This document shows positions 13,538-27,560 of a stretch of DNA of 64,000 nucleotides, in pieces. How positions within the stretch are numbered: position 1 is the stretch's first letter; the number at the start of each line of letters is the position of its first letter. Position numbers and translations under genes: made by a program. The notes under the pieces were generated by a model, which saw only the letters and a program-made list of their open reading frames with translations, had not been told where the DNA came from and did not search any database. The stretch comes from Bacillota bacterium. Its GTDB lineage: Bacteria > Bacillota > Sulfobacillia > JAJYWN01 > JAJZPE01. The stretch spans positions 26,572-90,571 of the forward strand of contig JAJYMC010000054.1 of assembly GCA_021787335.1 (NCBI GenBank). The letters run 5' to 3'.

Positions 13538-13546
13538 ATTATAGCA
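13538..13546 (-). promoter_or_regulatory. extended -10 promoter (TGCTATAAT) for the SCIFF precursor, inside the 3' end of the AOR gene
   Basis: Minus-strand TGCTATAAT lies 45 nt upstream of the scfA ATG. Confidence 0.5.
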
Positions 13547-15473
13547 CAAGGCCCTCCTGAGCGTCCACTCTATGCCTTCGCGGGTGTGCCTTCGCGGGAG
13601 CGAGGCACGACGCCACGTCCGACAGGCCGAGTCTTTCGACCTCGGATGGATCAGGCTGTCCGGACTCGTCCAGCTGCATCAGTGAATAGTATTCGGCGAG
13701 CTGTCGCTCAATGTCTGGGACGAGGCCGGCCGCCGGTCCGTCGGGCAAGGGCTCGCGGAAACGCGCCGGGATACGGTCATCCGCCCGGGTCATCCCGAAG
13801 GCGCCGTTGATGAGCCGCTTGAGGGTCCAGATGCGGCGGCCCGTGGTCAGGAACTCCTCAACGCTGTGGTCGAAGCCGGTCGCGGCGTTGAGGGCGGCGA
13901 CCGCCTCTTCCCCGGTGACGATCGACCCGCCCGCGTAGCATAGGGCCAGAGCGCCACCAAGGGCCTGCCCGGCGTCCTGGGCCCGGGCATGCAGGGCGGC
14001 CTTGCCGTCGCTGGTCTGGGCCGAGTCGGGCGGCTCGACCCCGAGGTCGGGGATGTAGGCCATCCCCAGCTCAGCGTAAAAGGTCAACCCGGAGAGGTGC
14101 GAGGCCCCGCGGTCGGAGGTGGCGTACTGCAGGGCCAGGCCGTGCATGGCACGCGGGTCGTGATAGGGCACCTCGACACCCTTGACGGTCATCAGGAACT
14201 CGTCGGCGCCGGGACCGAGGGTCGCCGCGAAGCGCTGGGAGCCCTCGCCGAGAAGTTTGCCGAACCCTTCCCGCCGGGCGATGCGCTGGGTCAGGGCCAC
14301 CGCGGCGCCGGCGTCACCCCAGTTGAGTTCGAGCCCGTCGGTGTCGGCCGGCCCGATGAGGCCCCTTTCATAGGCCTCGAAGGCGTAGGCCAGGGTGCCT
14401 CCGCAGCTGATGGTGTCGAGCCCCTGGCGGTTGCAGATGTCGTTCATCCGGGCCACGGCCCGCGGATTGTCCACCCTGAGACCGGTCCCGAAGGCGGCCA
14501 CGGTCTCATACTCAGGGCCGGGGCCCTGCTCCACGCGGTAGGGCTGATCGTCCACGCGGACGACCCGCTTGCAGCTGACCGGGCAGCCGAAGCAGGTCCT
14601 GCGCCCGGTCAGGATGGTCGCGTTATAGTTGTTGCCCCCGAGGGCCTGCAGGCCTTCCTCCCAGAGCCCTTCGCGCCAATTCTTGGTCGGCATGTCCCCG
14701 ACCATCAGGCTCAGTTCGATGGAAGAGATCGTCCCGACCTCGCGGTAGGTCTGGAGGGTGAGGCTCTCTTTGCCACGTTCGATGAGCTCGCGGCGGAGGC
14801 GGTCGATGGTCGCGCGGTCGGCCAGGGGCACTTCCTGGCGGCCCCGGACGACGACGGCCTTCAGCCTCTTGCTCCCCATGACGGCGCCAAGGCCGCCGCG
14901 CCCGGCGACGTGAGCTCGGTCATGGACGATCGAGGCGAAGCGGACCAACCGCTCGCCGGCCGGCCCGATGGCCAGCACCCGCCAACCATCGGGACTGAAG
15001 CGGGCATGGACCTCATAGGTGTCGAGCCCCCACAGGTCGGAGGCGTCACGAAGCTCAGCGCGGCCGTCATCGATGGCCAGATAGACTGGGCGCTCGGAGG
15101 CCCCGGTGACGACTATCCCATCGTACCCGGCAAACTTGAGGTGCGGTCCGAAGAACCCGCCGACGCTGGATTCACCCCAGATCCCGCTGAGCGGGGAGCG
15201 GGCGACGACGTTGAAGCGTGACGCTGACGGGAACGGGGTCCCGGCCAGCGGCCCGGTCATGATGATGAGTTCATTGTCCGGCCCGAGCGGGTCCGGCCGC
15301 GCCGGTCCGCCATCGGCCGGTCTGACGGCTTCGGCGAAGTACCTGGCGGCCAGACCGCTGCCACCGATGTACCGCCGGAGCCAGTCTTGATCGAGCGGCA
15401 GGTCCTCGAGGCGACCGGCGCTCAGGTCGACCCGCAGGAGACGGCCCATGTAGCCGGTGGCCACGGCCGTCAC
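13539..15473 (-). CDS. tungsten-containing aldehyde:ferredoxin oxidoreductase (AOR family)
   Basis: 644 aa with full-length AOR homology (N-terminal MGRLLRVDLS...YIGGSGLAARY). Confidence 0.9.
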   Translation of the reverse strand: MTAVATGYMGRLLRVDLSAGRLEDLPLDQDWLRRYIGGSGLAARYFAEAVRPADGGPARPDPLGPDNELIIMTGPLAGTPFPSASRFNVVARSPLSGIWGESSVGGFFGPHLKFAGYDGIVVTGASERPVYLAIDDGRAELRDASDLWGLDTYEVHARFSPDGWRVLAIGPAGERLVRFASIVHDRAHVAGRGGLGAVMGSKRLKAVVVRGRQEVPLADRATIDRLRRELIERGKESLTLQTYREVGTISSIELSLMVGDMPTKNWREGLWEEGLQALGGNNYNATILTGRRTCFGCPVSCKRVVRVDDQPYRVEQGPGPEYETVAAFGTGLRVDNPRAVARMNDICNRQGLDTISCGGTLAYAFEAYERGLIGPADTDGLELNWGDAGAAVALTQRIARREGFGKLLGEGSQRFAATLGPGADEFLMTVKGVEVPYHDPRAMHGLALQYATSDRGASHLSGLTFYAELGMAYIPDLGVEPPDSAQTSDGKAALHARAQDAGQALGGALALCYAGGSIVTGEEAVAALNAATGFDHSVEEFLTTGRRIWTLKRLINGAFGMTRADDRIPARFREPLPDGPAAGLVPDIERQLAEYYSLMQLDESGQPDPSEVERLGLSDVASCLAPAKAHPRRHRVDAQEGLVL

Positions 15474-15476
15474 CCC

Positions 15477-15914
15477 TTACTGGGTGAGATCGGCCCGGCC
15501 GATCTCCTTCAGGTATTGCGGGTACAGTTCAAAGGCCGGCTTGATGACCGGGATGAGCTTGATGATGCTCTGGATGGGACCGACCGCCTTCATCTGCCCC
15601 TTGGCGAGGGCGGCCACCAGGTTCACCTTGCCCAGCCAGAACTGGTGGGCGACGTCGGCCTTCATCGACATCACGACGTCCGGCTTGAAGTTGATGTCGC
15701 CCTCGTAGATGGTGTAAGGCTCCCCTGGGGGCGGGTTCTTGGCGTCGACGGTGATGGCGCTGTCGGGGTCGCTGTAGTTGAAACGGACCGAGATCTTTGA
15801 GTCACTGACCTTCTGCGCCAGGGGCTCGGTCAGGGCCCGCCGGAAGAGACCGCCGATGCACAGGTAGACTTCGGAAGCATCCTTGAAGACCGCCATTCTC
15901 CTGTTACCTCCCAT
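15477..15914 (-). CDS. SCP2 sterol-binding domain protein
   Basis: 145 aa SCP-2-like fold signature, translationally close to AOR. Confidence 0.65.
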   Translation of the reverse strand: MGGNRRMAVFKDASEVYLCIGGLFRRALTEPLAQKVSDSKISVRFNYSDPDSAITVDAKNPPPGEPYTIYEGDINFKPDVVMSMKADVAHQFWLGKVNLVAALAKGQMKAVGPIQSIIKLIPVIKPAFELYPQYLKEIGRADLTQ

Positions 15915-15952
15915 CAGACTGGTTGGACAAGAAGCCCGGGGGCCGGAAGCCC

Positions 15953-17146
15953 TCAGACGACCTTCTTCAACACCTCGAGCAGTTCCTCAGCCGTGGCCGG
16001 GCGTGGGTTGGTGAAGATGGCCCCGTCCATGACCGCGGCTTCGGCCGCTTCGTTGAGACTGCTCTCCGAAACGCCCGCGTCTCTGAGCCGCGCCGGAAGC
16101 CCGCAAGACTTAGCCAGAACCTTGACCGCCTCGATGACCGCCCGAGCTGTCTCTTCTTCGGAGCCCGACGGCCAGACCCCGAACGATGGAGCAAGCTCGG
16201 CGATGCGACCGGCGGCCACGTCGAGGTTGTACTCCAAGCCCGGCGCCAGGAGGATGGCGTTAGCCAGCCCGTGGGGGACGTCGAAGAGCCCGCCCAGGGC
16301 GTGAGCCATGGCGTGGACGCAGCCGACGAGGGAGTTGGAAAAGGCGGCGCCGGCCAGGTTGCTGCCGATGAGCATCCAATAGCGAGCCTCGACGCTGGAG
16401 CCCACAAGGGTGGCCCTGGGTAGCCACTGGTTGATGACCCTGATGGCATAGAGGGCCAGCCCGTCGCTGATTGGATTGGCCGATACCGAGAGATAGGCCT
16501 CGACGGCGTGGGTCAGGGCGTCCATCCCGGTGGAGGCAGTCAGGCCGGGGGGCAGGCCGAGGGTCATCTCCGGATCGAGGACGGCCAGGTCCGGGCCCAA
16601 GTAGGGGCTCGTGAAGCTGTACTTGACCCGAGCGGCGGGATCCTTGATGACGGCCATGTTGGTCACTTCGCTGCCGGTCCCGGCGGTCGTCGGGACGGCC
16701 ACCAGCTTGCCGAGGGGCTCGTTGATGAGCCCGAGGCCCTGGTAGTCCATGAGGTTCCCGCCCTTGGAGAGGACCATGTTCATACCCTTGGCCGTGTCGA
16801 TGACACTCCCGCCGCCGATGGCCACCAGGACGTCACCCCCCGCCTCGCCCGCGGCCGCGGCCGCCCGCTCGACCACGTTGACATCGGAGTTGGGCGGGAC
16901 GTCCAGGAACTCCCCGACGACGGTCACGCCGCCGGCAGTCAGTCCCTGCCTGGCCCGCTCGACCAGACCGAGCTTCTCAAGGGTCCGATCGGAGACGATG
17001 AAGGCCCTTTCCACTCCCAGGCGGGTCACCTGGTCACCCAGTTCCCGGACCAGGCCGGCCGCGCCCATCACCCGGGTCCGCATGGAGAAATCGAGGAACT
17101 CGGGTAGCATGTCAGATTCCCCCTCGGGCGTTCTTGGTGGGTGCAC
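15953..17146 (-). CDS. iron-containing alcohol dehydrogenase
   Basis: 397 aa with Fe-ADH family motifs (GGGSVIDTAK, metal-binding His cluster). Confidence 0.85.
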   Translation of the reverse strand: MHPPRTPEGESDMLPEFLDFSMRTRVMGAAGLVRELGDQVTRLGVERAFIVSDRTLEKLGLVERARQGLTAGGVTVVGEFLDVPPNSDVNVVERAAAAAGEAGGDVLVAIGGGSVIDTAKGMNMVLSKGGNLMDYQGLGLINEPLGKLVAVPTTAGTGSEVTNMAVIKDPAARVKYSFTSPYLGPDLAVLDPEMTLGLPPGLTASTGMDALTHAVEAYLSVSANPISDGLALYAIRVINQWLPRATLVGSSVEARYWMLIGSNLAGAAFSNSLVGCVHAMAHALGGLFDVPHGLANAILLAPGLEYNLDVAAGRIAELAPSFGVWPSGSEEETARAVIEAVKVLAKSCGLPARLRDAGVSESSLNEAAEAAVMDGAIFTNPRPATAEELLEVLKKVV

Positions 17147-17158
17147 ACTGCCGGGTCA

Positions 17159-18406
17159 TCAATCGAAGACGAAGGTGGCCTTGATGAGACCGTTGCCGCC
17201 CTTGTCGAGGGCGGTCTCGAACGCTTGCCGATAATCAGCCAGGGCGAAGCGGTGGGTCAGGAGGCCGACGAAAGGAACGGCTCGCGCGGACATCAGTTGA
17301 AGGGCCTTTTCGAAGCTCGAGACGGCCTGCCCATCGATGTCCTCGAGCCCGCTGGCATAGGTGCCGGCGATGGTCAGCTGGCTCTGCCAGACGCGGCTCC
17401 AGTCCACCCCGCTGGGTATCGAGGCCAGTCCGGCCAGGACGACCCGTCCGCCTGAACCGGCCAACCGTAACGCGTCGCTGATGCTCCGCGAGTTGCCCAC
17501 GCACTCGTAGATCAATCCCGGACCCCCGCGGATGACCGGCGGCCCAAGAATCGGCCGGTGGACGGAGGCTCCGACCAGAGAGGCCACCTTGCGGTCGTAA
17601 TCGCCCCGCGCCCGGACCACTTCGTCGGCCCCCATCCGCGCGGCTGCTTCGCCCTGATGCTCGTGGCGGGCCAGGGCGATGATCCGGTTCTTGTGGCCGA
17701 GGGCGCGCAGGGAGGCGATGACGCCCAAGCCGATGATGCCGGCCCCGACGACCAGGACGACCTCGCCGTCCGCCGGCCGGTGGCGGGCCACCGCGTGCAG
17801 CGAGCACGACAGGGGTTCGACGAGGACGGCTTCCTCGTCGCTCAGATCATCGGGGATGTGGTGCAACTGGGTCTCGTGGGCGACGAAGGACTCGCTCCAA
17901 CCGCCTCCGGTGTCGCGGCAGTTCCCGATGAGCATCCCGCGGGCGAGGTCACCCCGGGTGAAGTTGTCGCAGATGGAGAAGTCTCCCCGCTGGCAGTGCG
18001 GGCAGGGGGGCTCGATCTCCCTGGCCTCGCAGGCCAGCAGGGGGTCTACGGCCACGCGGTCGCCGGGTTGGAAGCCCTTGACCGCCGGACCGACCTCGCC
18101 TACAGTACCGACGTTCTCATGCCCGACGGTGAACGGGAACGAGACGAACGGCGAGAGCGACGGGCTATTGTGCAACCTGATAAGGTTCAGGTCGCTGCCG
18201 CAGATGCCGGCCAGACGCGTGCGGACCCGGACCCAACGCTGGCCGGGCAGGCGCGGCTCGGGCACGTCGCGATAGAGCAGGTTGCCGAGCGAGCTCAGGT
18301 GGATACCCGGATAGACCTGGCCGAGGGCCTTCCCCAGGGCGTAGCGGAACTTGCTGTCGGTGAACTGGAGCGCCTTCAGAGCGCCATCCCCCCATCGCCC
18401 CGGCAT
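17159..18406 (-). CDS. zinc-binding alcohol dehydrogenase (MDR superfamily)
   Basis: 415 aa with GICGSDLN catalytic-zinc motif, structural-zinc Cys cluster and GxGxxG Rossmann motif. Confidence 0.85.
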   Translation of the reverse strand: MPGRWGDGALKALQFTDSKFRYALGKALGQVYPGIHLSSLGNLLYRDVPEPRLPGQRWVRVRTRLAGICGSDLNLIRLHNSPSLSPFVSFPFTVGHENVGTVGEVGPAVKGFQPGDRVAVDPLLACEAREIEPPCPHCQRGDFSICDNFTRGDLARGMLIGNCRDTGGGWSESFVAHETQLHHIPDDLSDEEAVLVEPLSCSLHAVARHRPADGEVVLVVGAGIIGLGVIASLRALGHKNRIIALARHEHQGEAAARMGADEVVRARGDYDRKVASLVGASVHRPILGPPVIRGGPGLIYECVGNSRSISDALRLAGSGGRVVLAGLASIPSGVDWSRVWQSQLTIAGTYASGLEDIDGQAVSSFEKALQLMSARAVPFVGLLTHRFALADYRQAFETALDKGGNGLIKATFVFD

Positions 18407-18570: not shown

Positions 18571-19041
18571 TCAACGTGGTAGAAGACCGGCCCGATGCGC
18601 TTCGACCAGGCGACTCAGAATGGGTTTGATGGGCGGGGCGGTGTCCTTGGGCAGGGCCTCAAGCTCAAAGAAACGGACCTCCAGTCCCTCACCGTCCCGC
18701 GGTGAAACTTCGCCGTGGAAGTACCGGGTCAGGTAGGCGACGGTGACGTTCCATACCTCGTCGCCGTTAGGTTAATGGTGGAACAGACCGGGCCCGGAAA
18801 AGACACCGAAGAGAGTCAGGTCCCCGAGCTCCAGGCCGGTCTCCTCGGCAGTCTCGCGGCGAGCGGTGGTCTCGGTGTCCTCACCGGGATCGGTGCCCCC
18901 GCCAGGGACCCCCCAGGCCCCTGAGTCGGTGCGGCGTTGCATCAGCAGTCGGTCCCGCTCATCGAGGACAATTGCGCAAGCACCGGCGAGGACCAGGGGA
19001 CGATGTCCGATCAAGGCCCGCAGTTCTGCGATGTAGCTCAT
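18571..19041 (-). pseudogene. NUDIX hydrolase interrupted by in-frame TAA (at 18772-18774)
   Basis: Nudix box GGGTDPGEDTETTARRETAEETG lies upstream of the stop. The same reading frame continues after TAA (PNGDEVWNVTVAYL...AHRAGLLPR*) to TGA at 18571-18573. Confidence 0.6.
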
Positions 19042-19071
19042 GAGAACCTCCGCGTGATGGGCGTGCTCGAA

Positions 19072-20658
19072 TCAAAAGGTATATTGACCCGGGTCGGGAT
19101 GGGCCGGCGGGAAGAGGACGCCGAAGGCATGCTTGACCGCGCGGGGCAGGTTGAGCTCGGTCAGAAGGTCTTCGCCGGGCCAGGAGCAGCCCAGGGCGAG
19201 GCGGGTCAGCGCCTGCGGCGTCAGGCGGAGGTTCGGGCGCCAATCGACCGGGCGGACCGCGACGCCGTCGTAGTCGTATACCAGCGACACGCTCTGGCCG
19301 CCAAGGTCTATGGCGATGGTCCCGACCCCGTCACCACCCCGGTCGACCCACCGGGACGAGAGGACCGGTTCGAGGGATTTCAGGAAGGCGTACGGCGCCA
19401 CCACCTTGGTGAATCCGGCGTTGGGCCGGACCATGCGGAAGCTGCCGCGGGCCCGCATGCCCGCCCGGGCCAAGCGATTGCCGGGTCCGGCGACGATGGC
19501 GAACTCCTCCGTACCCCGCGCGGTCGCCCGCCGGGCGAGGTCTTGCAGGGCGCGGTCGGCCGCTTCGTCATCGGCCGCGGCGCCGTCCGTTACGACCATC
19601 CGCCCTTCCCTTTCGTCGATGTAGGCATGTGCGGTTGGCGTCCCACCGTGCCGCAGGACGAACAGCCGCGCAGGGTCGGGGAAGGGCCGGTGGACCAGCT
19701 CGGCCCTTTTCACGTTATCGACGGCGATCTCACGGCGCCACCAGTCGAGCGGGCGGACCGGGGCGAGACAACCGCGGGAGGCCTCGCGGCCCCACAGTTC
19801 GGCCAGGCCCGGGGCATCTGCCGCCACGACCGGTTCCATGGTCTCGCCGGGTGGCTCACCGACCTCGCCGCCCTTCCCGGCGGCCCCAAGCACACGGTCG
19901 GGCCGGACGACCACCTCATAGTACGGCAGGCACTTGACGAACCCGGCCCGCAGATAGTAATCGGGCACCCCGTGGAGGAGGACCAGCGTTCCGCCGTGGG
20001 CGACGACTTGTCGTTCGAGCTCCTCGATGAGCCTGACCATGTACCCGCGGCCCCGGTACTCCTTGAGCGTGGCCGCCGGGGACAGCATCCAACTGTCGAT
20101 GACCGCTCCGCCGATGTAGGTCGGGCGGGGGAACATGCCAACCAGACTGACGAGGCGACCGTCAGCCTCGCCGACCACCAGCCACTCTGGTCTGAAGTCC
20201 GGCAAATGGTAGAGGTACTCGAAGAGGTCGCGCTCGTCCGGGTTCTCCCGGACTCCGCCGTAGTAGCCGAAACGAAATGACTCCTCGATGACGTCGAGGA
20301 CCTGGGGGATGTCTTCTGCGCGGCCTGTCCGTATCCTCAGTTCGCTCACTTCATCCCTCCTTTGGCCGGTAGGCGGGTGACCAACCGTACCCTTAGCGGC
20401 CTCTTCGTGTGCCACTCCAGCCCCGGGTCGCACCGGTTCGTCGACCATGTATAGATAGCCGTCGCGCCGCCCATCGTGCCCGATCTGCCCGTCATCGTCG
20501 TACCAGAGACGGCCGGGCTGATGTGAGAAGGCCTCCGCCAGTTCCCGCCATTGGGTGATGGTACTCCCCGGGCGCAGCACTTCGAAGGCCTTGTCCGAAC
20601 CGTTGAACCATGGGCGATACCAGTCCACCCTGTCGGGCTTCATGTCCATGCCCCCCAC
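19072..20658 (-). CDS. Eis-like GNAT N-acetyltransferase with SCP2-like C-terminal domain (N-terminal extension of unknown function)
   Basis: 528 aa with a GNAT core (IRTGRAEDIPQVLDVIEESF...) and Eis-type tandem architecture. Start uncertain. Confidence 0.55.
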   Translation of the reverse strand: MGGMDMKPDRVDWYRPWFNGSDKAFEVLRPGSTITQWRELAEAFSHQPGRLWYDDDGQIGHDGRRDGYLYMVDEPVRPGAGVAHEEAAKGTVGHPPTGQRRDEVSELRIRTGRAEDIPQVLDVIEESFRFGYYGGVRENPDERDLFEYLYHLPDFRPEWLVVGEADGRLVSLVGMFPRPTYIGGAVIDSWMLSPAATLKEYRGRGYMVRLIEELERQVVAHGGTLVLLHGVPDYYLRAGFVKCLPYYEVVVRPDRVLGAAGKGGEVGEPPGETMEPVVAADAPGLAELWGREASRGCLAPVRPLDWWRREIAVDNVKRAELVHRPFPDPARLFVLRHGGTPTAHAYIDEREGRMVVTDGAAADDEAADRALQDLARRATARGTEEFAIVAGPGNRLARAGMRARGSFRMVRPNAGFTKVVAPYAFLKSLEPVLSSRWVDRGGDGVGTIAIDLGGQSVSLVYDYDGVAVRPVDWRPNLRLTPQALTRLALGCSWPGEDLLTELNLPRAVKHAFGVLFPPAHPDPGQYTF

Positions 20659-20663
20659 GGGTC

Positions 20664-21503
20664 TTATCGGCTACGTACGACCCGCCCTCCCAGCTCGCGC
20701 TCGGCCACGAGGCACAGGCTCTCGTACCGGGCCCGGTCGAACGCCGGCAGCCGGGCGAGTTCCGTCTTGACCCCGTTCGGCCGGAAGGGGATGAGCCGGA
20801 GGCGGGTGCGCCCGTCAAGCCCCTTCACCAGCCTGGCGATGGCGGTTATCTCCGCCTCGTCGTCGGTAAAGCCTTCGACGATGACCGTGCGGACCTCGTG
20901 GAGGTGCCCCTCCCGCGAGGTCCGGGCGATGTTCTCGAGGATCACCCGGTTGTCGGCCCCCGTCAGCTGGGTGTGCTTGTCCGCGTCGAGGGCCTTGAGG
21001 TCGAACATGAAGCCGTCGGTCACCGGCAGGAGGGTCTCAAGGGCCTCCTGGCTCATCTGGCCGTTGGTGTCGATGAAGGTGGTCAGGGACGTGTCCGCCT
21101 TGACCCGTCGGAAGAGTTCGGCCACGAACTCGTGCTGCAGGGTGCACTCCCCGCCGGAGACGGTCACGCCGTCGAGGAAGTCTTGGAGCTCCAGCAGCCG
21201 CGCGTGGACCTCGTTGACGTCGACCAGCCGGTACTTGGGCGAAGAGAAGTGCGGGCAGACTTTGAGACAGGTGTCGCAGCTGCGGCAACGCCCCGGGTCA
21301 TGGACGACGCGGCCGTCGACCAGGCTCAGGGCCCCGGCCGGGCAGGTGGCCACGCACTCGCCGCAGTCGACGCACACCCGCTGGGTCTCCGGGTTATGGC
21401 AATAGTTGCAGGCCAGGTTGCAGCCTTGCAGAAAGACCACAAGGCGGTTGCCCGGCCCGTCGATCAGGGAATGCTCGATTATCCTATTGACCGTCGCCTT
21501 CAC
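20664..21503 (-). CDS. yjjW: glycyl-radical enzyme activating protein (YjjW-like, extra 4Fe-4S clusters)
   Basis: GPGNRLVVFLQGCNLACNYCHNPE radical-SAM site plus two ferredoxin-like Cys clusters. The track ORF extends to 21578. The probable start is GTG at 21503, giving a short overlap with the upstream gene. Confidence 0.75.
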   Translation of the reverse strand: MKATVNRIIEHSLIDGPGNRLVVFLQGCNLACNYCHNPETQRVCVDCGECVATCPAGALSLVDGRVVHDPGRCRSCDTCLKVCPHFSSPKYRLVDVNEVHARLLELQDFLDGVTVSGGECTLQHEFVAELFRRVKADTSLTTFIDTNGQMSQEALETLLPVTDGFMFDLKALDADKHTQLTGADNRVILENIARTSREGHLHEVRTVIVEGFTDDEAEITAIARLVKGLDGRTRLRLIPFRPNGVKTELARLPAFDRARYESLCLVAERELGGRVVRSR

Positions 21504-22998
21504 GGACAGCCCTGACCCTTCTCTCCAGGGTCCGGTTGTTCTTGATGCTGTCGGCGCCGAGCTTGACGGTGCCCTCACGGACCGGCTCCCCGCGGAAGTA
21601 ACGGTCGACCTCGCACCGCTTGACGAGGTAGCCGGTGATGCGGATGAGCTCTGAGTCGGAGGTGTTCAGGGCCATGATCCGCATCCCGTTCTTCATCGCC
21701 CCCCGGACGATGCGGAGCACCCCGTCGGGGTTGTCGCGGGCGTTGGCCTCGAAGATGTAGATGTCATTGACTCCCGTATCAAAGTGGCGTTGCAGCGCGC
21801 TCTGCAGCCTGATCTGGTCGTAGAGGGCGGGCTCGTCGCCGATGCGGGAGCGGACGCCGGCCGTGACATCGACGTCGGTGTCGATGCCCGATTGGGCGTG
21901 CACGCCGAGCAGGCCGCCAAAGACCTTGCCGTAAGCCGTCTTGTGCATCTTGACGAGGTCGTGAGCCCGGCCCATGATGGCCAGGGCCATCTCGTCGGCC
22001 CCCTTGTCGTGGCCCATCCGGCGCCCGCCGGAAAAGGCCTGGACCCCTTCATAGAGCCCGAAGAAGCCGGCCATGGCGGTGAACTTGCGCCGGTCGATCA
22101 GGCCCTCCTGGGCCAGGAAGGACGACTCGAAGAAGCCGGCCTCTTCAACAATGAAGCGGATGCGGGCGTTGATCAGCTCGGCCTGAGCGTCGACGACCTC
22201 GGGGAGCACGTCGGCCATGAACTGATCGTAGTCCCGCGCCCCGCGGGCGGCTTCCTTGAGGTTCAGCCGGACCAGGGTGAAGCTGCCGCCCCCGATCTTC
22301 AGGGAGTTGTAGCAGCTGGCGATGCCGTAGTCGTCGCCGCCGAAGACGCGGCGGAGTTCCGCATGGTTGACGAAGTAGGGCTTGGAGGTGTCGAGGGCCG
22401 TGGTCACGGCCAACCGGGCGAATTCAGGCGGCGTCTCTTCGCTGAATTTCAGGGACAGGTTGGGCACGGCCTTTTTCAGTTCGCCCTCCAGTTTGAGGAC
22501 GAGCCGGCCGACGGCGGTCGCCCGGGGGCCGATGTTCATGTGGACGAAGGCGTCCGGCAACGTCCGGTCGATGTTCACCAGGAACATCCGGAGCAACCGC
22601 TCGGCCTCGGCCGGGCTGACCGTGTCGATGAAACCTTCGAGGACGTCGTCGATCTGGCCGAGGTAGACCGGGTAGCCGGTGACTGAGGGGACATTCCGGT
22701 AGAGGATGAGCAGCGCGTTGACCGCCTCGTAGAGGTCGCGGGGGGCGGGCAGGTCCAGGTGCCGGCTGCCCTGGCGGATGAACTTGACGTAATCCGGTAG
22801 GATGTAGCGCGGGCGATAGGGCGCGTGCCCCTCGCCGAGGTCGTGGAGCACCCCACTGTCCATCAGTTCCTGGACGCGCCGGCCGACCTGCAGGTAGGGC
22901 AACGAGTTCTCGGCGGCCGCGGCCAGTTCGTGCCGCTTCTGAGGGTATGTCAGGCGACGGTCTTTGACCAGTTCGATGACCTTGTCCACCCAAGCCAC
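21484..22998 (-). CDS. yjjI: YjjI-family (DUF3029) putative glycyl radical enzyme
   Basis: 504 aa with a C-terminal glycyl-radical-like motif RITGY. Located immediately upstream of its activase. Confidence 0.65.
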   Translation of the reverse strand: MAWVDKVIELVKDRRLTYPQKRHELAAAAENSLPYLQVGRRVQELMDSGVLHDLGEGHAPYRPRYILPDYVKFIRQGSRHLDLPAPRDLYEAVNALLILYRNVPSVTGYPVYLGQIDDVLEGFIDTVSPAEAERLLRMFLVNIDRTLPDAFVHMNIGPRATAVGRLVLKLEGELKKAVPNLSLKFSEETPPEFARLAVTTALDTSKPYFVNHAELRRVFGGDDYGIASCYNSLKIGGGSFTLVRLNLKEAARGARDYDQFMADVLPEVVDAQAELINARIRFIVEEAGFFESSFLAQEGLIDRRKFTAMAGFFGLYEGVQAFSGGRRMGHDKGADEMALAIMGRAHDLVKMHKTAYGKVFGGLLGVHAQSGIDTDVDVTAGVRSRIGDEPALYDQIRLQSALQRHFDTGVNDIYIFEANARDNPDGVLRIVRGAMKNGMRIMALNTSDSELIRITGYLVKRCEVDRYFRGEPVREGTVKLGADSIKNNRTLERRVRAVREGDGQ

Positions 22999-23078
22999 CT
23001 CCGATTCGATTATAGCAGACGGGGCGGCGGTGGGGTTTCCCCTCGGCTTGGTTTTCCTGCCGTCGAGCTAAATAGCCC

Positions 23079-23120
23079 TTGCCAAAGCCACGGCCTGGCT
23101 GTATATTTTGTTCTATACAG
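23079..23120 (+). promoter_or_regulatory. marR promoter (TTGCCA-17-TATATT) with overlapping 7-bp inverted repeat CTGTATA-N8-TATACAG (candidate MarR operator)
   Basis: -35 at 23079-23084, -10 at 23102-23107. The palindrome spans 23099-23120, overlapping the -10 and start region. Confidence 0.55.
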
Positions 23121-23150: not shown

Positions 23151-23606
23151 ATGCCCAGAGCGCCCAACGAGATCGGCGACTTGTGGTGGGCCATCAACCG
23201 CCGCTTGCATGACCGTTTTCGCGAGGCCTTCCGTGGGTCCGAACTGCCCCCCATGGCCCTGGTCTTCCTCCGGCAGGTCGACCACTCCCCTGGGGTGACC
23301 ATCGGCGAGTTGGCGCGGCGGTCGGGCACGGTCAAGAGCCATGTCTCGAAGATGGTCGAGCATCTGGTCCGCCAGGGCTACCTGGAGAAACGGGCCGACC
23401 CGGCCGACCAGCGCCTGGTCCGGGTATACGCCTCCAAACTGGCGGCTGAGACCAAGTCGGCGATGGAGGCGCGGGTCCGCGAGGCCTGGCTGGGAGTGAC
23501 CGGCGAGATCCCGGAGGGACAACTCGAGAGCGTCGTCGGGTCACTGCGGACCCTCCTCGAGGCCCTCGAGAGGTCCAACGCCAAAGATTGTTTGGACCGG
23601 AGTTGA
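23151..23606 (+). CDS. MarR family transcriptional regulator
   Basis: 151 aa winged-HTH MarR fold. GAGGTGA RBS. Divergent from yjjI. Confidence 0.85.
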   Translation: MPRAPNEIGDLWWAINRRLHDRFREAFRGSELPPMALVFLRQVDHSPGVTIGELARRSGTVKSHVSKMVEHLVRQGYLEKRADPADQRLVRVYASKLAAETKSAMEARVREAWLGVTGEIPEGQLESVVGSLRTLLEALERSNAKDCLDRS

Positions 23607-23621
23607 CAAAACCGGGCCCAT

Positions 23622-25379
23622 ATGGGCTCGGTCGATGGGAGATGGAGCTTCGTGATCAAGTTGTCCCGTTTTTTGAAGCCATATCGGGCCGCCGTGGCCG
23701 CCGTACTGGGCTTCGTCTTTCTGCAGACCATAGCGGAGTTGAGCCTGCCGACCCTGATGGCGGACATCATCAACACCGGGGTGATGAAGGGCGACACCAA
23801 CTATATCTGGCACGTCGGCGGACGGATGCTGCTCGTCGCCGGCGGCAGCGCCATCGCCGCCGTCCTGGTGAGCTACCTATCGGCCCGAGTCGCGTCCGGC
23901 TTCGGCCGGGACCTCCGCGGCCGGGTCTTCTCCCGCGTGGAGAGCTTCTCCCTGCACGAGTTCGATAAGATCGGCACGGCCACCCTCATCACCCGGACGA
24001 CCAACGACATCACACAGGTCCAGATGGTCACGGTGATGATCCTGCGGATGATGGTCATGGCCCCGATCATGGCCATCGGCGGCACGATCTTGGCCGTGTC
24101 CAGGGACGGCTCTCTATCGCTGATTCTCGTGGTCTCCGTTCCGCTGCTGGCCGGGGTCATCGCCCTCCTGGCCTCGCGGGCCATTCCCCTCTTCACCCTG
24201 ATGCAGACCAAGCTCGACAAGCTCAACCGGGTCCTGCGGGAAGGCCTCACTGGCATCCGCGTAATCCGCGCCTTCGACCGCGTTGACTATGAGCGCCGCC
24301 GCTTCGAGGAGGCCAATCGCGACCTGACGGCCACGGCCATCCGGGTCAACCGGATCCTGGCCATCCTCTTCCCCGTCCTGATGCTGACGATGAACTTCAC
24401 TTCCATCGCCATCGTCTGGTTCGGCGGGATCCGCATCGACAATGGGCATCTGGCCATCGGCGACATGATGGCCTTCATCCAATACGCCATGCAGATCATG
24501 TTCTCACTGGTGATGGTGTCGATGATGTTCGTCATGATCCCGCGGGCCGAGGCCTCGGCTGTCCGCGTCAATCAAATCCTCGAGACCGCCCCCGAGATCA
24601 ACGACCCAAGCCGGCCGGCATCGGCCACCGGGCAGCGCGGCCGGGTCGAGTTCAAGGACGTCACCTTCGGTTACGCCGGGGCTGAGCAGCCGGCCCTGAG
24701 CCATATCTCGTTCCGGGCGGAACCCGGTCAAGTGACGGCGGTCATCGGCGGTACCGGCTCAGGGAAGACCTCCTTGATAAGCCTGATCCCGCGATTCTAC
24801 GACGTTGACAGCGGCCAAGTCCTGGTCGACGGGGTCGATGTCCGCGAGATGACCCAGGAAGAGTTGCGGGCGAAGATCGGCTTCGTGCCGCAGAAGGCGG
24901 TCCTTTTCACCGGGACCATCGCCGATAACATCCGCTACGGTAAGGAAACGGCCACTGATGAGGAGGTCCGGCGGGCGGCCGAGGTCGCTCAGGCGACTGA
25001 GTTCATCTCCGGCATGAAGGACGGCTACGACTCGGAGATCGCGCAGGGCGGGACGAACGTCTCGGGCGGCCAGAAACAGCGCCTGTCCATCGCCCGCGCC
25101 CTGGTCAGGAAGCCTGAAGTCTACGTCTTCGATGACAGCTTCTCGGCCCTCGACTTCAAGACTGACTCGCGGCTCAGGCACGCCCTCCGGAAGGAGACGG
25201 CCGACGCCACCGTCCTCATCGTCACCCAGCGAGTCAGCACGGTCATGGACGCCGACCAGATCATCGTCCTCGACGAGGGCAAGATCGCCGGCATCGGCCG
25301 GCACAAGGAGTTGCTGACGACCTGCCCCGTTTACCGGGAAATCGTCTCGTCGCAGCTGTCCGAGGAGGAAATGGCATGA
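23622..25379 (+). CDS. ABC exporter, fused permease/ATPase (heterodimer subunit A)
   Basis: 585 aa with six TM helices, Walker A GGTGSGKTS, LSGGQKQRLSIARAL and Walker B VYVFDDSFSALD. Confidence 0.9.
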   Translation: MGSVDGRWSFVIKLSRFLKPYRAAVAAVLGFVFLQTIAELSLPTLMADIINTGVMKGDTNYIWHVGGRMLLVAGGSAIAAVLVSYLSARVASGFGRDLRGRVFSRVESFSLHEFDKIGTATLITRTTNDITQVQMVTVMILRMMVMAPIMAIGGTILAVSRDGSLSLILVVSVPLLAGVIALLASRAIPLFTLMQTKLDKLNRVLREGLTGIRVIRAFDRVDYERRRFEEANRDLTATAIRVNRILAILFPVLMLTMNFTSIAIVWFGGIRIDNGHLAIGDMMAFIQYAMQIMFSLVMVSMMFVMIPRAEASAVRVNQILETAPEINDPSRPASATGQRGRVEFKDVTFGYAGAEQPALSHISFRAEPGQVTAVIGGTGSGKTSLISLIPRFYDVDSGQVLVDGVDVREMTQEELRAKIGFVPQKAVLFTGTIADNIRYGKETATDEEVRRAAEVAQATEFISGMKDGYDSEIAQGGTNVSGGQKQRLSIARALVRKPEVYVFDDSFSALDFKTDSRLRHALRKETADATVLIVTQRVSTVMDADQIIVLDEGKIAGIGRHKELLTTCPVYREIVSSQLSEEEMA

Positions 25380-27334
25380 GCACAGAACAGCGAGGACAGC
25401 AGAATGGCGGCGCGGGCGCCGGCCCGCGGCCGGGGGCAGGCCCTGGAGCCGGCCCCGGCTTCGGCCCCGGGCGGGATCCCGGGCGCGGAGGCCCCATGGG
25501 TGGCGGACCCCACGCCGGGATGATGATGCCAGGCGAGAAGGCCAAGGACACCCGCGGCACGCTCCGCCGCCTGGTGGTCTACCTCCAGCCCCGCCGCCCC
25601 CAACTGTCCGTCATCATCGGTATGGCCGTCCTCAGCACCATCTTCAGCATCGTCGGGCCGAAGATCCTCGGCAAGGCGACGACCAAGCTGTTCGAGGGGA
25701 TCGTCGCCAAGATGATGCGGGTGCCGGGGGCCCACGTCGATTACACCTACATCGGCCGGATCATCCTGCTCCTGGCCGGCCTGTATCTCCTGAGCGCCCT
25801 GTTCTCCTATATCCAGCAGTACATCATGGCCGGCGTGGCCCAGAACACGGTCTTTGACATGCGCCGCGACGTCGAGGCTAAGCTGGCGCGGCTTCCCCTG
25901 AAGTACTTCGACTCCCGGACGCACGGCGAGATCCTCAGCCGGGTGACCAACGACATCGACATGGTCAGCAGTACCCTTCAGCAGGGCGTGACCCAGCTAA
26001 TCACATCCGCGGTCACCATCGTCGGCGTGCTCATCATGATGCTGACCATCAGCCCGCTCCTGACCCTCATCGCCGTCGTCACGCTCCCGCTGTCGTTCGT
26101 GGCCACGATGGCCATCGCCAAGCGGTCGCAAAGGTACTTCGGCACCCAGCAGAAGACCATCGGCGAGTTGAATGGCCATGTCGAGGAGATGTACACAGGG
26201 CACGCCATCGTCAAGGCCTTCGGGCGTGAGAAGCGGTCGGTCGCCGAGTTCGGGGCAATCAACGACCGGCTCTACGACGCGGCCTGGCGGGCCCAGTTCG
26301 TCTCGGGGATCCTCTTCCCGCTGATGAACTTCATCAACAACATCGGCTATGTCTTCGTCTCGGTGGTCGGCGGGATCATGGTCACCAAGCGGACCATCGA
26401 GATCGGCGACGTCCAGGCCTTCATCCAGTACTCGCGGCAGTTCAGCCAGCCCATCGTGCAGACGGCCAACATCGTCAACATCATCCAGTCGACCATCGCC
26501 GCCGCCGAGCGCGTCTTCGAGGTCCTCGACGAGGCCGAGCAGATCCCGGACCCGGTGCCGGCCAAGGTCGTCAAGGAACCGAAGGGCGACGTCCGGTTCG
26601 ACCACGTCGATTTCAGCTATAAGCCTGACGTCCCGCTCATCGAGGACATGAACCTGGAGGTCAAGCCAGGCGAGAGCATCGCCATCGTCGGCCCGACCGG
26701 GGCCGGGAAGACGACCCTCGTGAACCTGTTGATGCGCTTCTACGAGGTCCGTGACGGCCGCATCACCGTGGACGGCGTCGACATCCGGAACATGAAACGC
26801 GGCGACCTGCGGCGGATGACCGGCATGGTCCTTCAGGACACCTGGCTCTTCAACGGGACCATCCGGGACAACATCGCCTATGGGCGCGAGGGGGCCACCG
26901 AGGAGGAGATCGTCCAGGCGGCCAAAGCGGCCCGCGCCGACCGCTTCATCCGGAGCCTGCCGGAGGGCTACGATACCGTCCTGAACGAGGAAGCCTCGAA
27001 CATCTCCCAGGGCCAGAAGCAGCTCCTGACCATCGCCCGGGCCATCCTGGCCGACCCGGCCATCCTCATCCTCGACGAAGCCACCAGCAACGTCGACACC
27101 CGGACCGAGGTCCTCATCCAGCGCGGCATGCGGGAACTGATGAAGGGGCGGACCAACTTCGTCATCGCCCACCGCCTCTCGACCATCCGCGACGCCGGCC
27201 TCATCCTGGTGATGAACAACGGCCGGGTGATCGAGCAGGGCACGCACCACGAGCTGTTGGCCAAGAATGGGTTCTACGCCGATCTCTATAACAGCCAGTT
27301 CGCGAAGGCCGGGACGGTCGAGGCGGTGGGGTAA
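25376..27334 (+). CDS. ABC exporter, fused permease/ATPase (heterodimer subunit B) with Gly/Pro-rich N-terminal extension
   Basis: 652 aa. ATGA start/stop overlap with the upstream gene. Walker A GPTGAGKTT, LSQGQKQLLTIARAI and ILILDEATSNVD. Confidence 0.9.
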   Translation: MSTEQRGQQNGGAGAGPRPGAGPGAGPGFGPGRDPGRGGPMGGGPHAGMMMPGEKAKDTRGTLRRLVVYLQPRRPQLSVIIGMAVLSTIFSIVGPKILGKATTKLFEGIVAKMMRVPGAHVDYTYIGRIILLLAGLYLLSALFSYIQQYIMAGVAQNTVFDMRRDVEAKLARLPLKYFDSRTHGEILSRVTNDIDMVSSTLQQGVTQLITSAVTIVGVLIMMLTISPLLTLIAVVTLPLSFVATMAIAKRSQRYFGTQQKTIGELNGHVEEMYTGHAIVKAFGREKRSVAEFGAINDRLYDAAWRAQFVSGILFPLMNFINNIGYVFVSVVGGIMVTKRTIEIGDVQAFIQYSRQFSQPIVQTANIVNIIQSTIAAAERVFEVLDEAEQIPDPVPAKVVKEPKGDVRFDHVDFSYKPDVPLIEDMNLEVKPGESIAIVGPTGAGKTTLVNLLMRFYEVRDGRITVDGVDIRNMKRGDLRRMTGMVLQDTWLFNGTIRDNIAYGREGATEEEIVQAAKAARADRFIRSLPEGYDTVLNEEASNISQGQKQLLTIARAILADPAILILDEATSNVDTRTEVLIQRGMRELMKGRTNFVIAHRLSTIRDAGLILVMNNGRVIEQGTHHELLAKNGFYADLYNSQFAKAGTVEAVG

Positions 27335-27344
27335 GCACCGAAAT

Positions 27345-27385
27345 GAAGAAGGGGGGCCTGATGGCCTCCCCTCTTCTGCTTTTCT
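27345..27385 (+). terminator. intrinsic terminator of marR-ABC exporter operon
   Basis: About 14-bp imperfect stem followed by TGCTTTTCT. Confidence 0.55.
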
Positions 27386-27436
27386 GGACCGGTTCCTCGG
27401 CGGACCGTGGCCTTCCCCGCGCCGTGCGCGGGCGCG

Positions 27437-27478
27437 ACCACAAAAGAAGGAGGCCGCCAACTTGGCGACCTCCTCTTC
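27437..27478 (-). terminator. intrinsic terminator downstream of tRNA-Thr
   Basis: GAAGGAGGCCGCC...GGCGACCTCCTCTTC stem followed by TTTTGTGG on the minus strand. Confidence 0.45.
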
Positions 27479-27488
27479 GATTTCTCTG

Positions 27489-27560
27489 AGCCGGCGATGG
27501 GACTTGAACCCGCAACCTGCTGATTACGATTCAGCTGCTCTACCATTGAGCTACGCCGGC
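27489..27560 (-). tRNA. tRNA-Thr (anticodon CGT)
   Basis: Manual cloverleaf: GCCGGCG acceptor stem, GCTGA/TCAGC anticodon stem with loop ATCGTAA, TTCAAGT T-loop. CCA is not encoded. Confidence 0.8.

What the first reader, a model, noticed from the sequence alone, without database searches (positions are those of the whole stretch)
20664..22998. YjjI/YjjW-type glycyl radical enzyme pair of unknown function
A 504-aa DUF3029/YjjI-like protein with a C-terminal RITGY glycyl-radical-like motif is followed, with overlap, by an activase. The activase has the CNLACNYC radical-SAM site plus two extra ferredoxin-like Cys clusters. No substrate or reaction is known for the YjjI family. The pair is divergently arranged with a marR-ABC exporter operon, which hints at induction by a small-molecule stress signal.
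Basis: partly seen in the sequence, partly recalled or inferred. Interest (0 to 1): 0.55.

Follow-up and report, generated by a model that had tools for sequence, protein, structure and literature searches.

The report
Orphan YjjI glycyl-radical enzyme and activase
This is a genuine but ordinary copy of the YjjI/YjjW glycyl-radical enzyme and activase pair, whose reaction is still unknown; comparing about 95 related loci shows the pair sits next to nucleoside-breakdown genes far too often for chance, which gives a testable lead.

Summary
Window 21484-22998(-) encodes a full-length YjjI-family glycyl radical enzyme (TIGR04040, 637 bits against a cutoff of 498). Window 20664-21578(-) encodes its YjjW activase (TIGR04041, 344 bits against 250), with CX3CX2C and two CX2CX2CX3C motifs. 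The likely real starts are GTG 22989 and GTG 21503, so the genes overlap by 20 nt, not 95.

No paper in the searched library assigns a function. The MarR/ABC-exporter neighbourhood recurs only as MarR in the closest MAG, so the 'stress induction' hint is weak.

New lead: nucleoside uptake or catabolism genes lie within 10 kb in 23 of 80 genome loci. They also flank the pair in E. coli, Edwardsiella, Haemophilus and three of five very distant homologues. None lies in this 64-kb window.

Verdict: a new member of a known orphan family. Interest is moderate.

The parts
21484..22989 (-). yjjI: YjjI-family glycyl radical enzyme. About 501 aa from GTG 22989; the maximal ORF starts at 22998.
21628..21642 (-). 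Glycyl-radical loop R453-I-T-G456-Y457 (ORF numbering). G456 is the codon at 21631-21633.
   Evidence: R453, G456, Y457, L458 and K460 are invariant in 71 sequences. The loop aligns to PFL (I)RVSGY. The equivalent Gly465 of E. coli YjjI (VTG465YMVR) was labelled by a radical-trapping probe in live cells (bioRxiv 10.64898/2026.08.13.742689).
22306..22317 (-). Cys loop S228-C229-Y230-N231. C229 (22312-22314) is the presumed thiyl-radical residue.
   Evidence: C229 is invariant in 71 sequences. It is the only Cys shared with E. coli YjjI, where it is C236. It aligns to PFL C419, with S228 at the position of PFL C418.
20664..21503 (-). yjjW: radical-SAM activase. About 279 aa from GTG 21503; it overlaps the yjjI 3' end by 20 nt.
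   Evidence: TIGR04041 at 343.9 bits (cutoff 250.2); next best is the general GRE-activase subfamily TIGR02494 at 169 bits. L082 has a called 279-aa gene with a 20-nt overlap. Overlaps of 1-28 nt occur in 60/80 loci.
21399..21422 (-). CX3CX2C (CNLACNYC): the site of the radical-SAM [4Fe-4S] cluster.
   Evidence: Read directly from the sequence. Pfam Radical_SAM and Fer4_12 match.
21255..21374 (-). Two ferredoxin-type CX2CX2CX3C motifs (CVDCGECVATC and CRSCDTCLKVC) for auxiliary [4Fe-4S] clusters.
   Evidence: Read directly from the sequence. Pfam Fer4_7, Fer4_10 and Fer4_9 match residues 67-110.
22990..23014 (-). Short yjjI leader: -10-like TATAAT (23009-23014) and GGAGG (22998-23002) ahead of GTG 22989.
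   Evidence: Read directly from the sequence. This block is the best-conserved part of the intergenic region shared with L001. Promoter function is inferred, not shown.
23151..27334 (+). Context only: divergent marR (23151-23606) and a heterodimeric ABC exporter pair (23622-25379, 25376-27334).
   Evidence: Pfam MarR_2/MarR and ABC_membrane+ABC_tran. No NCBIfam model reaches its cutoff, so these are generic MsbA/SmdAB-like exporters. The linkage to yjjIW is not conserved.
18571..20349 (-). Context only: downstream Eis-like GNAT (about 19072-20349) and a NUDIX gene interrupted by an in-frame TAA (18571-19041).
   Evidence: Acetyltransf_9 match. The same gene order YjjI-YjjW-GNAT(425 aa)-NUDIX occurs in the 94%-identical relative L082. 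The in-frame stop is shown.

Best explanation
The locus is a two-gene, translationally coupled operon. It encodes a YjjI-family glycyl radical enzyme and its dedicated YjjW activase.

How it most likely works:
1. Under anoxia, YjjW binds S-adenosylmethionine at the CX3CX2C [4Fe-4S] cluster. It is fed electrons through two auxiliary ferredoxin-type clusters.
2. YjjW cleaves SAM reductively and abstracts the pro-S hydrogen of Gly456 of YjjI. This leaves a stable glycyl radical.
3. In each turnover the radical passes to Cys229 at the tip of the Cys loop in the centre of the ten-stranded barrel.
4. The thiyl radical abstracts a hydrogen atom from a small substrate, and the hydrogen is returned to the product radical.

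These steps are inferred from family membership, not shown here.

C229 is the only conserved Cys. The Cys+2 residue is Asn rather than Glu. The chemistry is therefore most likely a redox-neutral conversion (elimination, rearrangement or cleavage) of a type different from PFL, class III RNR and the C-x-E eliminases.

Based on gene neighbourhoods in many lineages, the substrate is most likely a metabolite of anaerobic nucleoside utilisation. The common denominator of the neighbouring enzymes is a ribose or ribose-phosphate moiety. Invariant Arg64, Lys206 and Arg244 would suit an anionic, for example phosphorylated, substrate.

Confidence by step: identity of the pair about 0.97; glycyl/thiyl radical mechanism about 0.8; link to nucleoside metabolism about 0.5; a ribose-phosphate-type substrate about 0.15.
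For: Identity:
- TIGR04040, TIGR04041 and PF11230 all score far above their cutoffs.
- G456 and C229 are invariant.
- The confident model is a GRE barrel.
- yjjW lies immediately downstream in 73/80 loci and overlaps yjjI in 60/80.

In vivo radical and anaerobic role, from the E. coli orthologue:
- Gly465 was labelled by a radical probe.
- yjjI is directly FNR-activated (PMC3688515).
- The pair is anaerobically induced in Yersinia (PMC3792023).

Single-Cys chemistry:
- The window protein has only two Cys, and only C229 is shared with E. coli.
- The loop reads S-C-Y-N.

Nucleoside link:
- psuK/psuG, deoA/B/C/D, rihB, cdd, PNP/Udp-type phosphorylases or Bmp-type nucleoside ABC transporters lie within 10 kb in 23/80 loci.
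- In 15 of these they are on the same strand within 3 kb, or divergent and adjacent.
- In L012 the order is psuK-psuG-crp-yjjI-yjjW-deoC-deoD-deoB-bmp.
- In Lacrimispora/Hungatella, yjjI-yjjW heads a Bmp transporter/phosphorylase/cdd gene string.
- E. coli and Edwardsiella have deoCABD divergent from the pair, and Edwardsiella also has nupC.
- H. influenzae has yjjI, the radical SAM gene and nupC together (PMC5609409).
- Homologues only 35-36% identical sit among IU_nuc_hydro, ADP_ribosyl_GH, PfkB, PNP_UDP_1 and Bmp/BPD_transp_2 genes.
- Twenty unrelated control proteins hit 0-3 loci each, apart from EF-G paralogues.
- The other recurrent neighbour families are generic.

The family is compact: about 25 full-length 50%-identity representatives among 1.84 billion. 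This fits one conserved function.
Against: - No biochemical data exist for any family member.
- About 70% of sampled loci, and this window itself (no hit in 64 kb), have no nucleoside gene near the pair.
- Many of the 23 positive loci are related. They reduce to roughly 12-16 independent arrangements.
- The chance expectation is my own rough estimate, not a genome-wide permutation.
- The union of hits for the 20 control proteins, which include multi-copy families, is 16 loci. The excess therefore rests on functional coherence, single-copy genes such as psuG (8 loci) and operon-like spacing.
- The active-site assignments (R64/Y65 at the PFL R176 / NrdD C175 position; R244 at PFL R435) come from low-confidence profile alignments (hhalign probability 14-43%) and from my own motif reading. 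I had no access to model coordinates.
- E. coli expression clusters yjjI with nitrate/nitrite genes, not deo genes (PMC3228777).
Confidence: 0.6

Rival explanations
1. YjjI is a divergent class III (anaerobic) ribonucleotide reductase, or an RNR-like reductase. It would use formate or a thiol to deoxygenate a ribonucleotide or ribose derivative. One public record names a 94%-identical fragment this way.
For: - P0002 is annotated 'anaerobic ribonucleoside-triphosphate reductase, partial'.
- Pfam NRDD gives a partial hit at 38 bits, E 8.9e-10.
- The nucleoside gene neighbourhoods and deoC adjacency would fit production of deoxyribose compounds.
Against: - The protein has only two Cys, so there is no C-terminal Cys4 Zn ribbon as seen in E. 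coli NrdD.
- At the position of the NrdD bottom-face Cys175 the family has an invariant Tyr65. This alignment is low-confidence.
- There is no ATP-cone, and the protein is 504 aa against 712.
- The activase is the 280-aa two-ferredoxin-cluster type, not the 154-aa NrdG type. TIGR02491 NrdG scores 48 bits against a cutoff of 126.
- E. coli NrdD found no hit among the ORFs of these loci.
Confidence: 0.07
2. YjjI is a small pyruvate formate-lyase-like 2-oxoacid lyase.
For: - The only sequence-level matches to solved structures are PFLs, around the Cys loop: PNLSLK...DYGIASCYN against PNMTILWS...DYAIACCVS.
- R244 aligns with PFL R435 in 'RLNL'/'RANL'.
- The Gly loop resembles IRVSGY.
Against: - PFL chemistry needs the C418-C419 pair. 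YjjI has Ser at the C418 position in almost all members, and S228 is at least 90% conserved.
- TIGR01255 scores 16.8 bits against a cutoff of 994.
- The protein lacks about 250 residues of PFL.
- Only one locus (L062) has a FocA-like formate-channel gene nearby, and phosphotransacetylase was not searched for.
Confidence: 0.05
3. In this organism the pair is part of a MarR-controlled response to a toxic small molecule. YjjI would transform the compound that the adjacent ABC exporter pumps out.
For: - marR-ABC-ABC is divergent from yjjI with about 160 bp between the starts.
- A MarR 67% identical is kept next to yjjI in the closest MAG, L001.
- An inverted repeat CTGTATA-N8-TATACAG lies in the shared intergenic region.
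Against: - The linkage is absent from the other 79 genome loci and from all additional loci.
- Only L024 has similar ABC genes, and there they are in the same orientation as yjjI.
- In L001 the ABC pair is replaced by an MFS gene, with only short ABC-like remnants.
- The inverted repeat overlaps the marR promoter-like -10 (23079-23107) and is poorly conserved in L001. The conserved block is the yjjI -10/RBS.
- The L001 synteny is as expected from recent common ancestry.
Confidence: 0.1

Closest known systems
E. coli YjjI (b4380) / YjjW (b4379); families TIGR04040, PF11230 (DUF3029) and TIGR04041
   Same: - Same two-gene architecture, with overlapping genes (29 nt in E. coli).
- About 40-44% identity between E. 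coli YjjI and relatives of the window protein.
- Same Gly loop and the same single conserved Cys.
- Both HMMs score above cutoff.
   Different: - The genomic context differs. E. coli has deoCABD divergent from the pair. The window has marR plus an ABC exporter divergent, and GNAT plus NUDIX downstream.
- The host is a high-GC (about 65%) Bacillota-like MAG lineage.
- Cys357, present in 69 of 71 mostly Bacillota-type sequences, is Gly here, in P0001 and in E. coli.
Class III ribonucleotide reductase NrdD (e.g. PDB 9d3x, 4u3e, 8p23)
   Same: - Same barrel, with Cys finger loop and C-terminal Gly loop.
- A weak Pfam NRDD hit.
- A shared (S/R)-L-N-L motif after the Cys loop.
   Different: - 13-16% identity.
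- No Zn ribbon, no second catalytic Cys, no ATP-cone.
- A different activase class.
Pyruvate formate-lyase PflB/TdcE (PDB 1h16, 2pfl)
   Same: - Closest at the sequence-motif level around the Cys loop and the Gly loop.
- Arg244 aligns to the substrate-binding Arg435.
   Different: - Ser replaces Cys418.
- About 250 residues shorter.
- PflA-type activases lack the ferredoxin insert that YjjW has.
C-x-E glycyl radical eliminases (glycerol/propanediol dehydratase, CutC, HypD, IslA) with two-cluster activases
   Same: - Single catalytic Cys.
- The activase has two auxiliary CX2CX2CX3C clusters. It scores 169 bits on the TIGR02494 subfamily and 173 bits on the HypD-activase model, both below cutoff.
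   Different: - The Cys+2 residue is Asn231, not the catalytic Glu.
- The protein is about 300 residues shorter.
- No microcompartment or pathway genes are nearby.

Membership tests
YjjI family glycine radical enzyme (TIGR04040 / PF11230) | Full-length HMM match above the curated cutoff | tested here: met
   TIGR04040 at 637.2 bits against 498.3, residues 6-496 on profile positions 2-497 of 497. PF11230 at 617 bits against 23.
YjjI family glycine radical enzyme (TIGR04040 / PF11230) | C-terminal glycyl-radical motif R-[IV]-[TS]-G-Y with a conserved Gly | tested here: met
   RITG456YLVK is present. R453, G456, Y457, L458 and K460 are invariant in 71 sequences.
YjjI family glycine radical enzyme (TIGR04040 / PF11230) | Conserved Cys-loop cysteine | tested here: met
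   C229 is invariant. It aligns to PFL C419 and E. coli YjjI C236.
YjjI family glycine radical enzyme (TIGR04040 / PF11230) | Adjacent dedicated YjjW-type activase | tested here: met
   TIGR04041 at 343.9 bits against 250.2, overlapping the 3' end of yjjI. The same arrangement occurs in 73/80 loci.
YjjI family glycine radical enzyme (TIGR04040 / PF11230) | Formation of a glycyl radical on the protein | not testable with these tools
   The only support is indirect: probe labelling of Gly465 in E. coli YjjI in vivo (preprint).
Glycyl radical enzyme superfamily | Ten-stranded alpha/beta barrel fold with a Cys loop and a Gly loop | tested here: met
   [not shown]
YjjW family activase (TIGR04041) | HMM score above cutoff, CX3CX2C, and two ferredoxin-like Cys clusters | tested here: met
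   343.9 bits against 250.2. CNLACNYC, CVDCGECVATC and CRSCDTCLKVC are present. The GGE motif VSGGE is seen in the translation.
Class III ribonucleotide reductase (NrdD) | C-terminal Cys4 Zn site, second active-site Cys, NrdG-type activase | tested here: not met
   The protein has only two Cys. Tyr65 sits at the C175 position, by a low-confidence alignment. The activase fails the NrdG models (TIGR02491 at 48 bits against 126).
Pyruvate formate-lyase (TIGR01255) | Adjacent Cys-Cys pair and HMM score above cutoff | tested here: not met
   The pair is S228-C229. TIGR01255 scores 16.8 bits against 994.2.
GRE 1,2-eliminases (dehydratases, CutC, IslA) | G-C-x-E motif with a catalytic Glu two residues after the Cys | tested here: not met
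   The loop is S-C-Y-N, and N231 is at least 90% conserved.

The most novel reading that the evidence does not exclude
YjjI/YjjW is the missing oxygen-independent radical step of nucleoside utilisation. It would be a new mechanistic class of glycyl radical enzyme: a single Cys, no C-x-E motif, and a Tyr/Arg-lined pocket. It would act on the ribose or ribose-phosphate moiety, or on a modified nucleoside, released by PsuG, nucleoside hydrolases and phosphorylases. In some Clostridia it would be controlled by a yjjI-specific structured 5' leader RNA that could be a riboswitch for its substrate.
Probability: 0.3. Interest if true: 0.75.

Novelty: new member of a known kind. Interest (0 to 1): 0.42.

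Why it matters
YjjI is one of the few glycyl radical enzyme families, and one of the remaining conserved E. coli y-genes, with no known reaction. It is widespread in gut and sediment anaerobes: more than 2,600 clusters at 90% identity were found among the scored candidates. It is very well conserved across phyla.

This window's copy adds little. It shows the family in a high-GC Bacillota lineage, in a context that says nothing about substrate.

The cross-lineage association with pseudouridine, nucleoside and deoxyribose genes narrows the substrate search to a short list that can be ordered from a catalogue. The yjjI-specific leader RNA offers an independent route to the ligand. If the link holds, it would add a new reaction type to radical enzymology. 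It would also add a new anaerobic step to nucleoside metabolism in gut bacteria.

Tried and rejected
1. Single conserved neighbour. All-vs-all clustering of 1,254 ORFs from 80 loci found none beyond YjjW; the maximum was 10/80, a generic ABC ATPase.
2. Pfam census of the positions one and two genes away on each side. There is no theme other than Bmp, Indigoidine_A (PsuG) and related nucleoside genes.
3. MarR/ABC linkage as a functional clue. Rejected because it is not conserved.
4. GNAT as a third operon member.
   - The maximal ORF starts 5 nt after the yjjW stop.
   - The GNAT domain begins at residue 108, and the L082 gene call is 425 aa with a 157-nt gap.
   - GNATs are neighbours in only 3/143 cases.
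   - Left as context only.
5. Rfam search for a riboswitch upstream of yjjI in eight Clostridial loci. Nothing at gathering threshold, and only a spurious miRNA hit at E <= 10. The glycine riboswitches found lie about 6 kb away and are unrelated.
6. Profile alignments to E. coli NrdD and PflB for residue mapping. They are low-confidence (hhalign probability 14% and 43%), so I used them only for motif-level statements.
7. Profile search of PDB sequences. It gave only weak PFL-type matches, and no YjjI structure has been solved.
8. Literature. E. coli papers give regulation only (FNR, a nitrate bicluster, anaerobic induction). A transposon hit in an RNA-folding screen was not followed up by its authors.
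9. I could not read the model coordinates, so I made no distance-based description of the active site.
Full report
**1. Observation**

The ORF listing shows a 504-aa ORF at 21484-22998(-) and a 304-aa ORF at 20664-21578(-), exactly as reported.
- The first matches NCBIfam TIGR04040 'YjjI family glycine radical enzyme' over its full length: 637.2 bits against a curated cutoff of 498.3, E 1.6e-191. It also matches Pfam PF11230 at 617 bits.
- The second matches TIGR04041 'YjjW family glycine radical enzyme activase': 343.9 bits against a cutoff of 250.2.

The sequence itself shows several further details.
- GGAGG lies 8 nt before a second GTG at 22989. This start is conserved in the closest relative.
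- A GTG at 21503 is the residue just before the TIGR04041 match begins.
- The 94%-identical relative L082 has a called 279-aa YjjW gene that overlaps yjjI by 20 nt.
- The real overlap is therefore about 20 nt. Across 80 related loci, 60 show an overlap of 1-28 nt, which indicates translational coupling.
- In YjjW I read CNLACNYC, CVDCGECVATC and CRSCDTCLKVC.

**2. What the enzyme looks like**

The family is large: at least 2,676 clusters at 90% identity were found among the scored candidates.

Alignments of 18 and 71 diverse homologues (47-81% identical to the window protein) show these invariant residues: G456 with R453, Y457, L458 and K460; C229; and E56, R64, Y65, H153, N180, K206, R244, E298, E317, H367-A368-Q369, D375, R383 and R493.

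The window protein has only two cysteines. Only C229 is shared with E. coli YjjI, where it is C236. A Cys at position 357 is present in 69 of 71 sequences. It is Gly in the window protein, in P0001 and in E. coli, so it cannot be essential.

- then, closely, PflD (26.8), CutC (25.7), IslA, propanediol dehydratase, HPAD and PFL (24-25).

At the sequence level the only matches to solved proteins are PFLs, around the Cys loop. There S228-C229 aligns with C418-C419, and R244 aligns with R435.

Taken together:
- It is a minimal glycyl-radical barrel.
- It is not an RNR. It has no Zn ribbon, no second Cys and no ATP-cone, and its activase is not of the NrdG type.
- It is not a PFL. It has no Cys pair, and TIGR01255 scores 16.8 bits against a cutoff of 994.
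- It is not a C-x-E eliminase. The loop reads S-C-Y-N.

**3. What is known**

Full-text searches for YjjI, YjjW, DUF3029, TIGR04040 and PF11230 returned no functional assignment.
[quoted passage not shown] It reports probe labelling of its Gly465 in living E. coli.
- E. coli yjjI is directly activated by FNR (PMC3688515).
- It co-clusters with nitrate/nitrite genes (PMC3228777).
- The pair is induced anaerobically in Yersinia intermedia (PMC3792023).
- Searches combining glycyl radical enzymes with pseudouridine, nucleoside, uracil or ribose found nothing relevant.

**4. Neighbourhood in the window**

Upstream and divergent lie a MarR regulator and a heterodimeric ABC exporter of generic MsbA/SmdAB type. 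Downstream on the same strand lie an Eis-like GNAT and a NUDIX gene interrupted by an in-frame TAA. The GNAT probably starts at residue 104 of its maximal ORF.

The closest MAG (L001; YjjI 81% identical) shares the flanking tRNA-Gly, DUF4760, tRNA-Thr and DedA genes. It keeps a 67%-identical MarR next to yjjI, but has an MFS gene where the window has the ABC pair.

The inverted repeat CTGTATA-N8-TATACAG (23099-23120) overlaps the marR promoter-like site and is poorly conserved in L001. The block conserved between the two is the yjjI TATAAT/GGAGG/GTG region. Nothing here argues that MarR controls yjjIW. The linkage is absent from all other loci.

**5. Comparative genomics**

I fetched 80 genome loci with up to 10 kb on each side, called ORFs and clustered them.
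- YjjW follows YjjI in 73 of 80 loci.
- No other family is present in more than 10 loci.

The recurrent specific families nevertheless share a theme:
- an HTH-PfkB kinase (YeiI/PsuK-like);
- Indigoidine_A (pseudouridine-5'-phosphate glycosidase, PsuG);
- Bmp-type nucleoside ABC transporter components;
- PNP_UDP_1 phosphorylases;
- a Crp-family regulator.

Searching all ORFs with E. coli DeoA/B/C/D, Cdd, RihB, PsuG, PsuK and YeiI, and with the Bmp and PNP representatives, gave 23 of 80 loci with at least one such gene. In 15 of them the gene is on the same strand within 3 kb, or divergent and adjacent. Examples:
- L012: psuK-psuG-crp-yjjI-yjjW-deoC-deoD-deoB-bmp.
- Five Lachnospiraceae loci: yjjI-yjjW followed directly by Bmp, the ABC genes, crp, two phosphorylases and, in one locus, cdd.
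- L004 and L007: a pyrimidine-nucleoside phosphorylase homologue, divergent, at -126 and -80 nt.
- L075: deoC 698 nt upstream.
- L079: rihB and a PfkB kinase directly upstream.

Outside this sample:
- E. coli has deoCABD divergent from yjjI.
- Edwardsiella has deoCABD on one side and nupC on the other.
- H. influenzae has yjjI, the radical SAM gene and nupC together (PMC5609409).
- Proteus has none.

I also looked up five homologues only 35-39% identical to the window protein.
- Three sit directly among IU_nuc_hydro, ADP_ribosyl_GH, PfkB, PNP_UDP_1, Bmp or BPD_transp_2 genes.
- One has such a transporter 6 kb away.
- One has none.

As a rough control, 20 unrelated E. coli proteins hit 0-3 loci each, except for EF-G paralogues. 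A single-copy gene such as psuG would be expected in about 0.3 of 80 windows of 16 kb (my estimate), yet it is seen in 8, in at least four different arrangements. The other recurrent families are generic or confined to one lineage.

I conclude that yjjIW is linked to nucleoside uptake and catabolism in roughly a quarter to a third of lineages, across at least five phyla. This is comparative inference, not proof. The window itself carries no such gene in 64 kb.

**6. Mechanism**

- Shown here: family membership, motifs and predicted fold.
- Established for the superfamily (general knowledge of PFL, NrdD, glycerol dehydratase and CutC): the activase makes a 5'-deoxyadenosyl radical from SAM and abstracts hydrogen from the conserved Gly. 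The glycyl radical then generates a thiyl radical on the Cys loop, and the thiyl radical abstracts hydrogen from the substrate.
- Inferred here: with only one conserved Cys and no Glu at Cys+2, the net reaction is probably redox-neutral and of a type not yet described.
- Inferred here: the invariant basic residues R64, K206 and R244 suggest an anionic substrate. R244 lies at the position of PFL R435, and R64/Y65 at the strand position of PFL R176 and NrdD C175.
- Inferred here: the products shared by the neighbouring enzymes (PsuG; hydrolase plus kinase; phosphorylase plus mutase) are ribose phosphates. I therefore rank a ribose or ribose-phosphate-derived substrate first, at low absolute probability (about 0.15). 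A modified nucleoside or a pyrimidine-derived compound is the alternative.

**7. Verdict**

The finding is real and correctly interpreted. It is another member of a known orphan family, in an uninformative local context. Its value lies in the family-level question, for which the nucleoside association and the leader RNA described under 'noticed in passing' give concrete experiments.

Noticed in passing
L021, L038, L045, L055, L068, L069, L072, L073, L074, L080 (about 100 nt upstream of yjjI, e.g. L072 4800-4917) and metagenome loci L090, L092-L100. Not present in the window.: A conserved 5' leader lies upstream of yjjI in a subset of Clostridia. Its layout is: -10 TATAAAAT, then TTAAC-AGCAU, a variable hairpin of 8-70 nt, AUGUU-AAACAACC, a second hairpin AACC...GGUU, then AAAAU...GGAG and the start codon. 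RNAalifold finds 13 pairs, 5 of them with compensatory changes. Ten of eleven metagenome matches to the core pattern lie directly upstream of a yjjI ORF. There is no Rfam 15 match. It is a candidate yjjI-specific cis-regulatory RNA, possibly a riboswitch.
   Followed up: partly
window 18571-19041 (-): A NUDIX hydrolase gene is interrupted by an in-frame TAA at 18772-18774 (...GLFHH*PNGDEVWNVTVAY...). The reading frame continues for 66 more codons. It is a pseudogene or a sequencing error. The same YjjI-YjjW-GNAT-NUDIX order occurs in L082.
   Followed up: partly
window 19072-20658 (-): The maximal 528-aa ORF downstream of yjjW begins 5 nt after the yjjW stop. However, the Eis-like GNAT domain starts at residue 108, and the orthologue in L082 is called as 425 aa with a 157-nt gap. 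The first ~100 codons are probably non-coding.
   Followed up: partly
window 23079-23120 (+): The perfect 7-bp inverted repeat CTGTATA-N8-TATACAG overlaps the -10 of a promoter-like site (TTGCCA-17-TATATT) ahead of marR. This looks like a MarR auto-operator. It is only partly conserved in L001.
   Followed up: partly
L001 3700-6500 compared with window 23151-27560: In the closest MAG, the ABC exporter pair between tRNA-Thr and marR is replaced by a 175-aa ORF and an MFS transporter on the other strand. Two short ABC-like peptide remnants lie next to marR. This suggests deletion or replacement of the exporter.
   Followed up: partly
window 13539-18406 (-): A same-strand run of redox genes lies downstream of the NUDIX gene: a tungsten-type aldehyde:ferredoxin oxidoreductase (AFOR_N/AFOR_C), a 145-aa ORF with no Pfam hit, an iron-containing alcohol dehydrogenase and a zinc alcohol dehydrogenase. 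It may be an aldehyde/alcohol module of an anaerobe. A link to yjjIW was not examined.
   Followed up: no
L055, L069, L080 (about 6-8 kb downstream of yjjI): Several glycine riboswitch aptamers (RF00504, 40-54 bits), including tandem pairs, flank an amino-acid permease gene. They are unrelated to yjjI.
   Followed up: no
L011, L016, L021, L045: yjjI lies in the same 10-kb neighbourhood as mltG (YceG) and an O-methyltransferase (Methyltransf_3). In L011 and L016 these lie directly upstream, and in L011 a U32 peptidase lies between them and yjjI. From memory this resembles the B. subtilis yrrL-yrrM-yrrN/O tRNA-ho5U34 modification cluster. The uridine-related link is weak at best.
   Followed up: no
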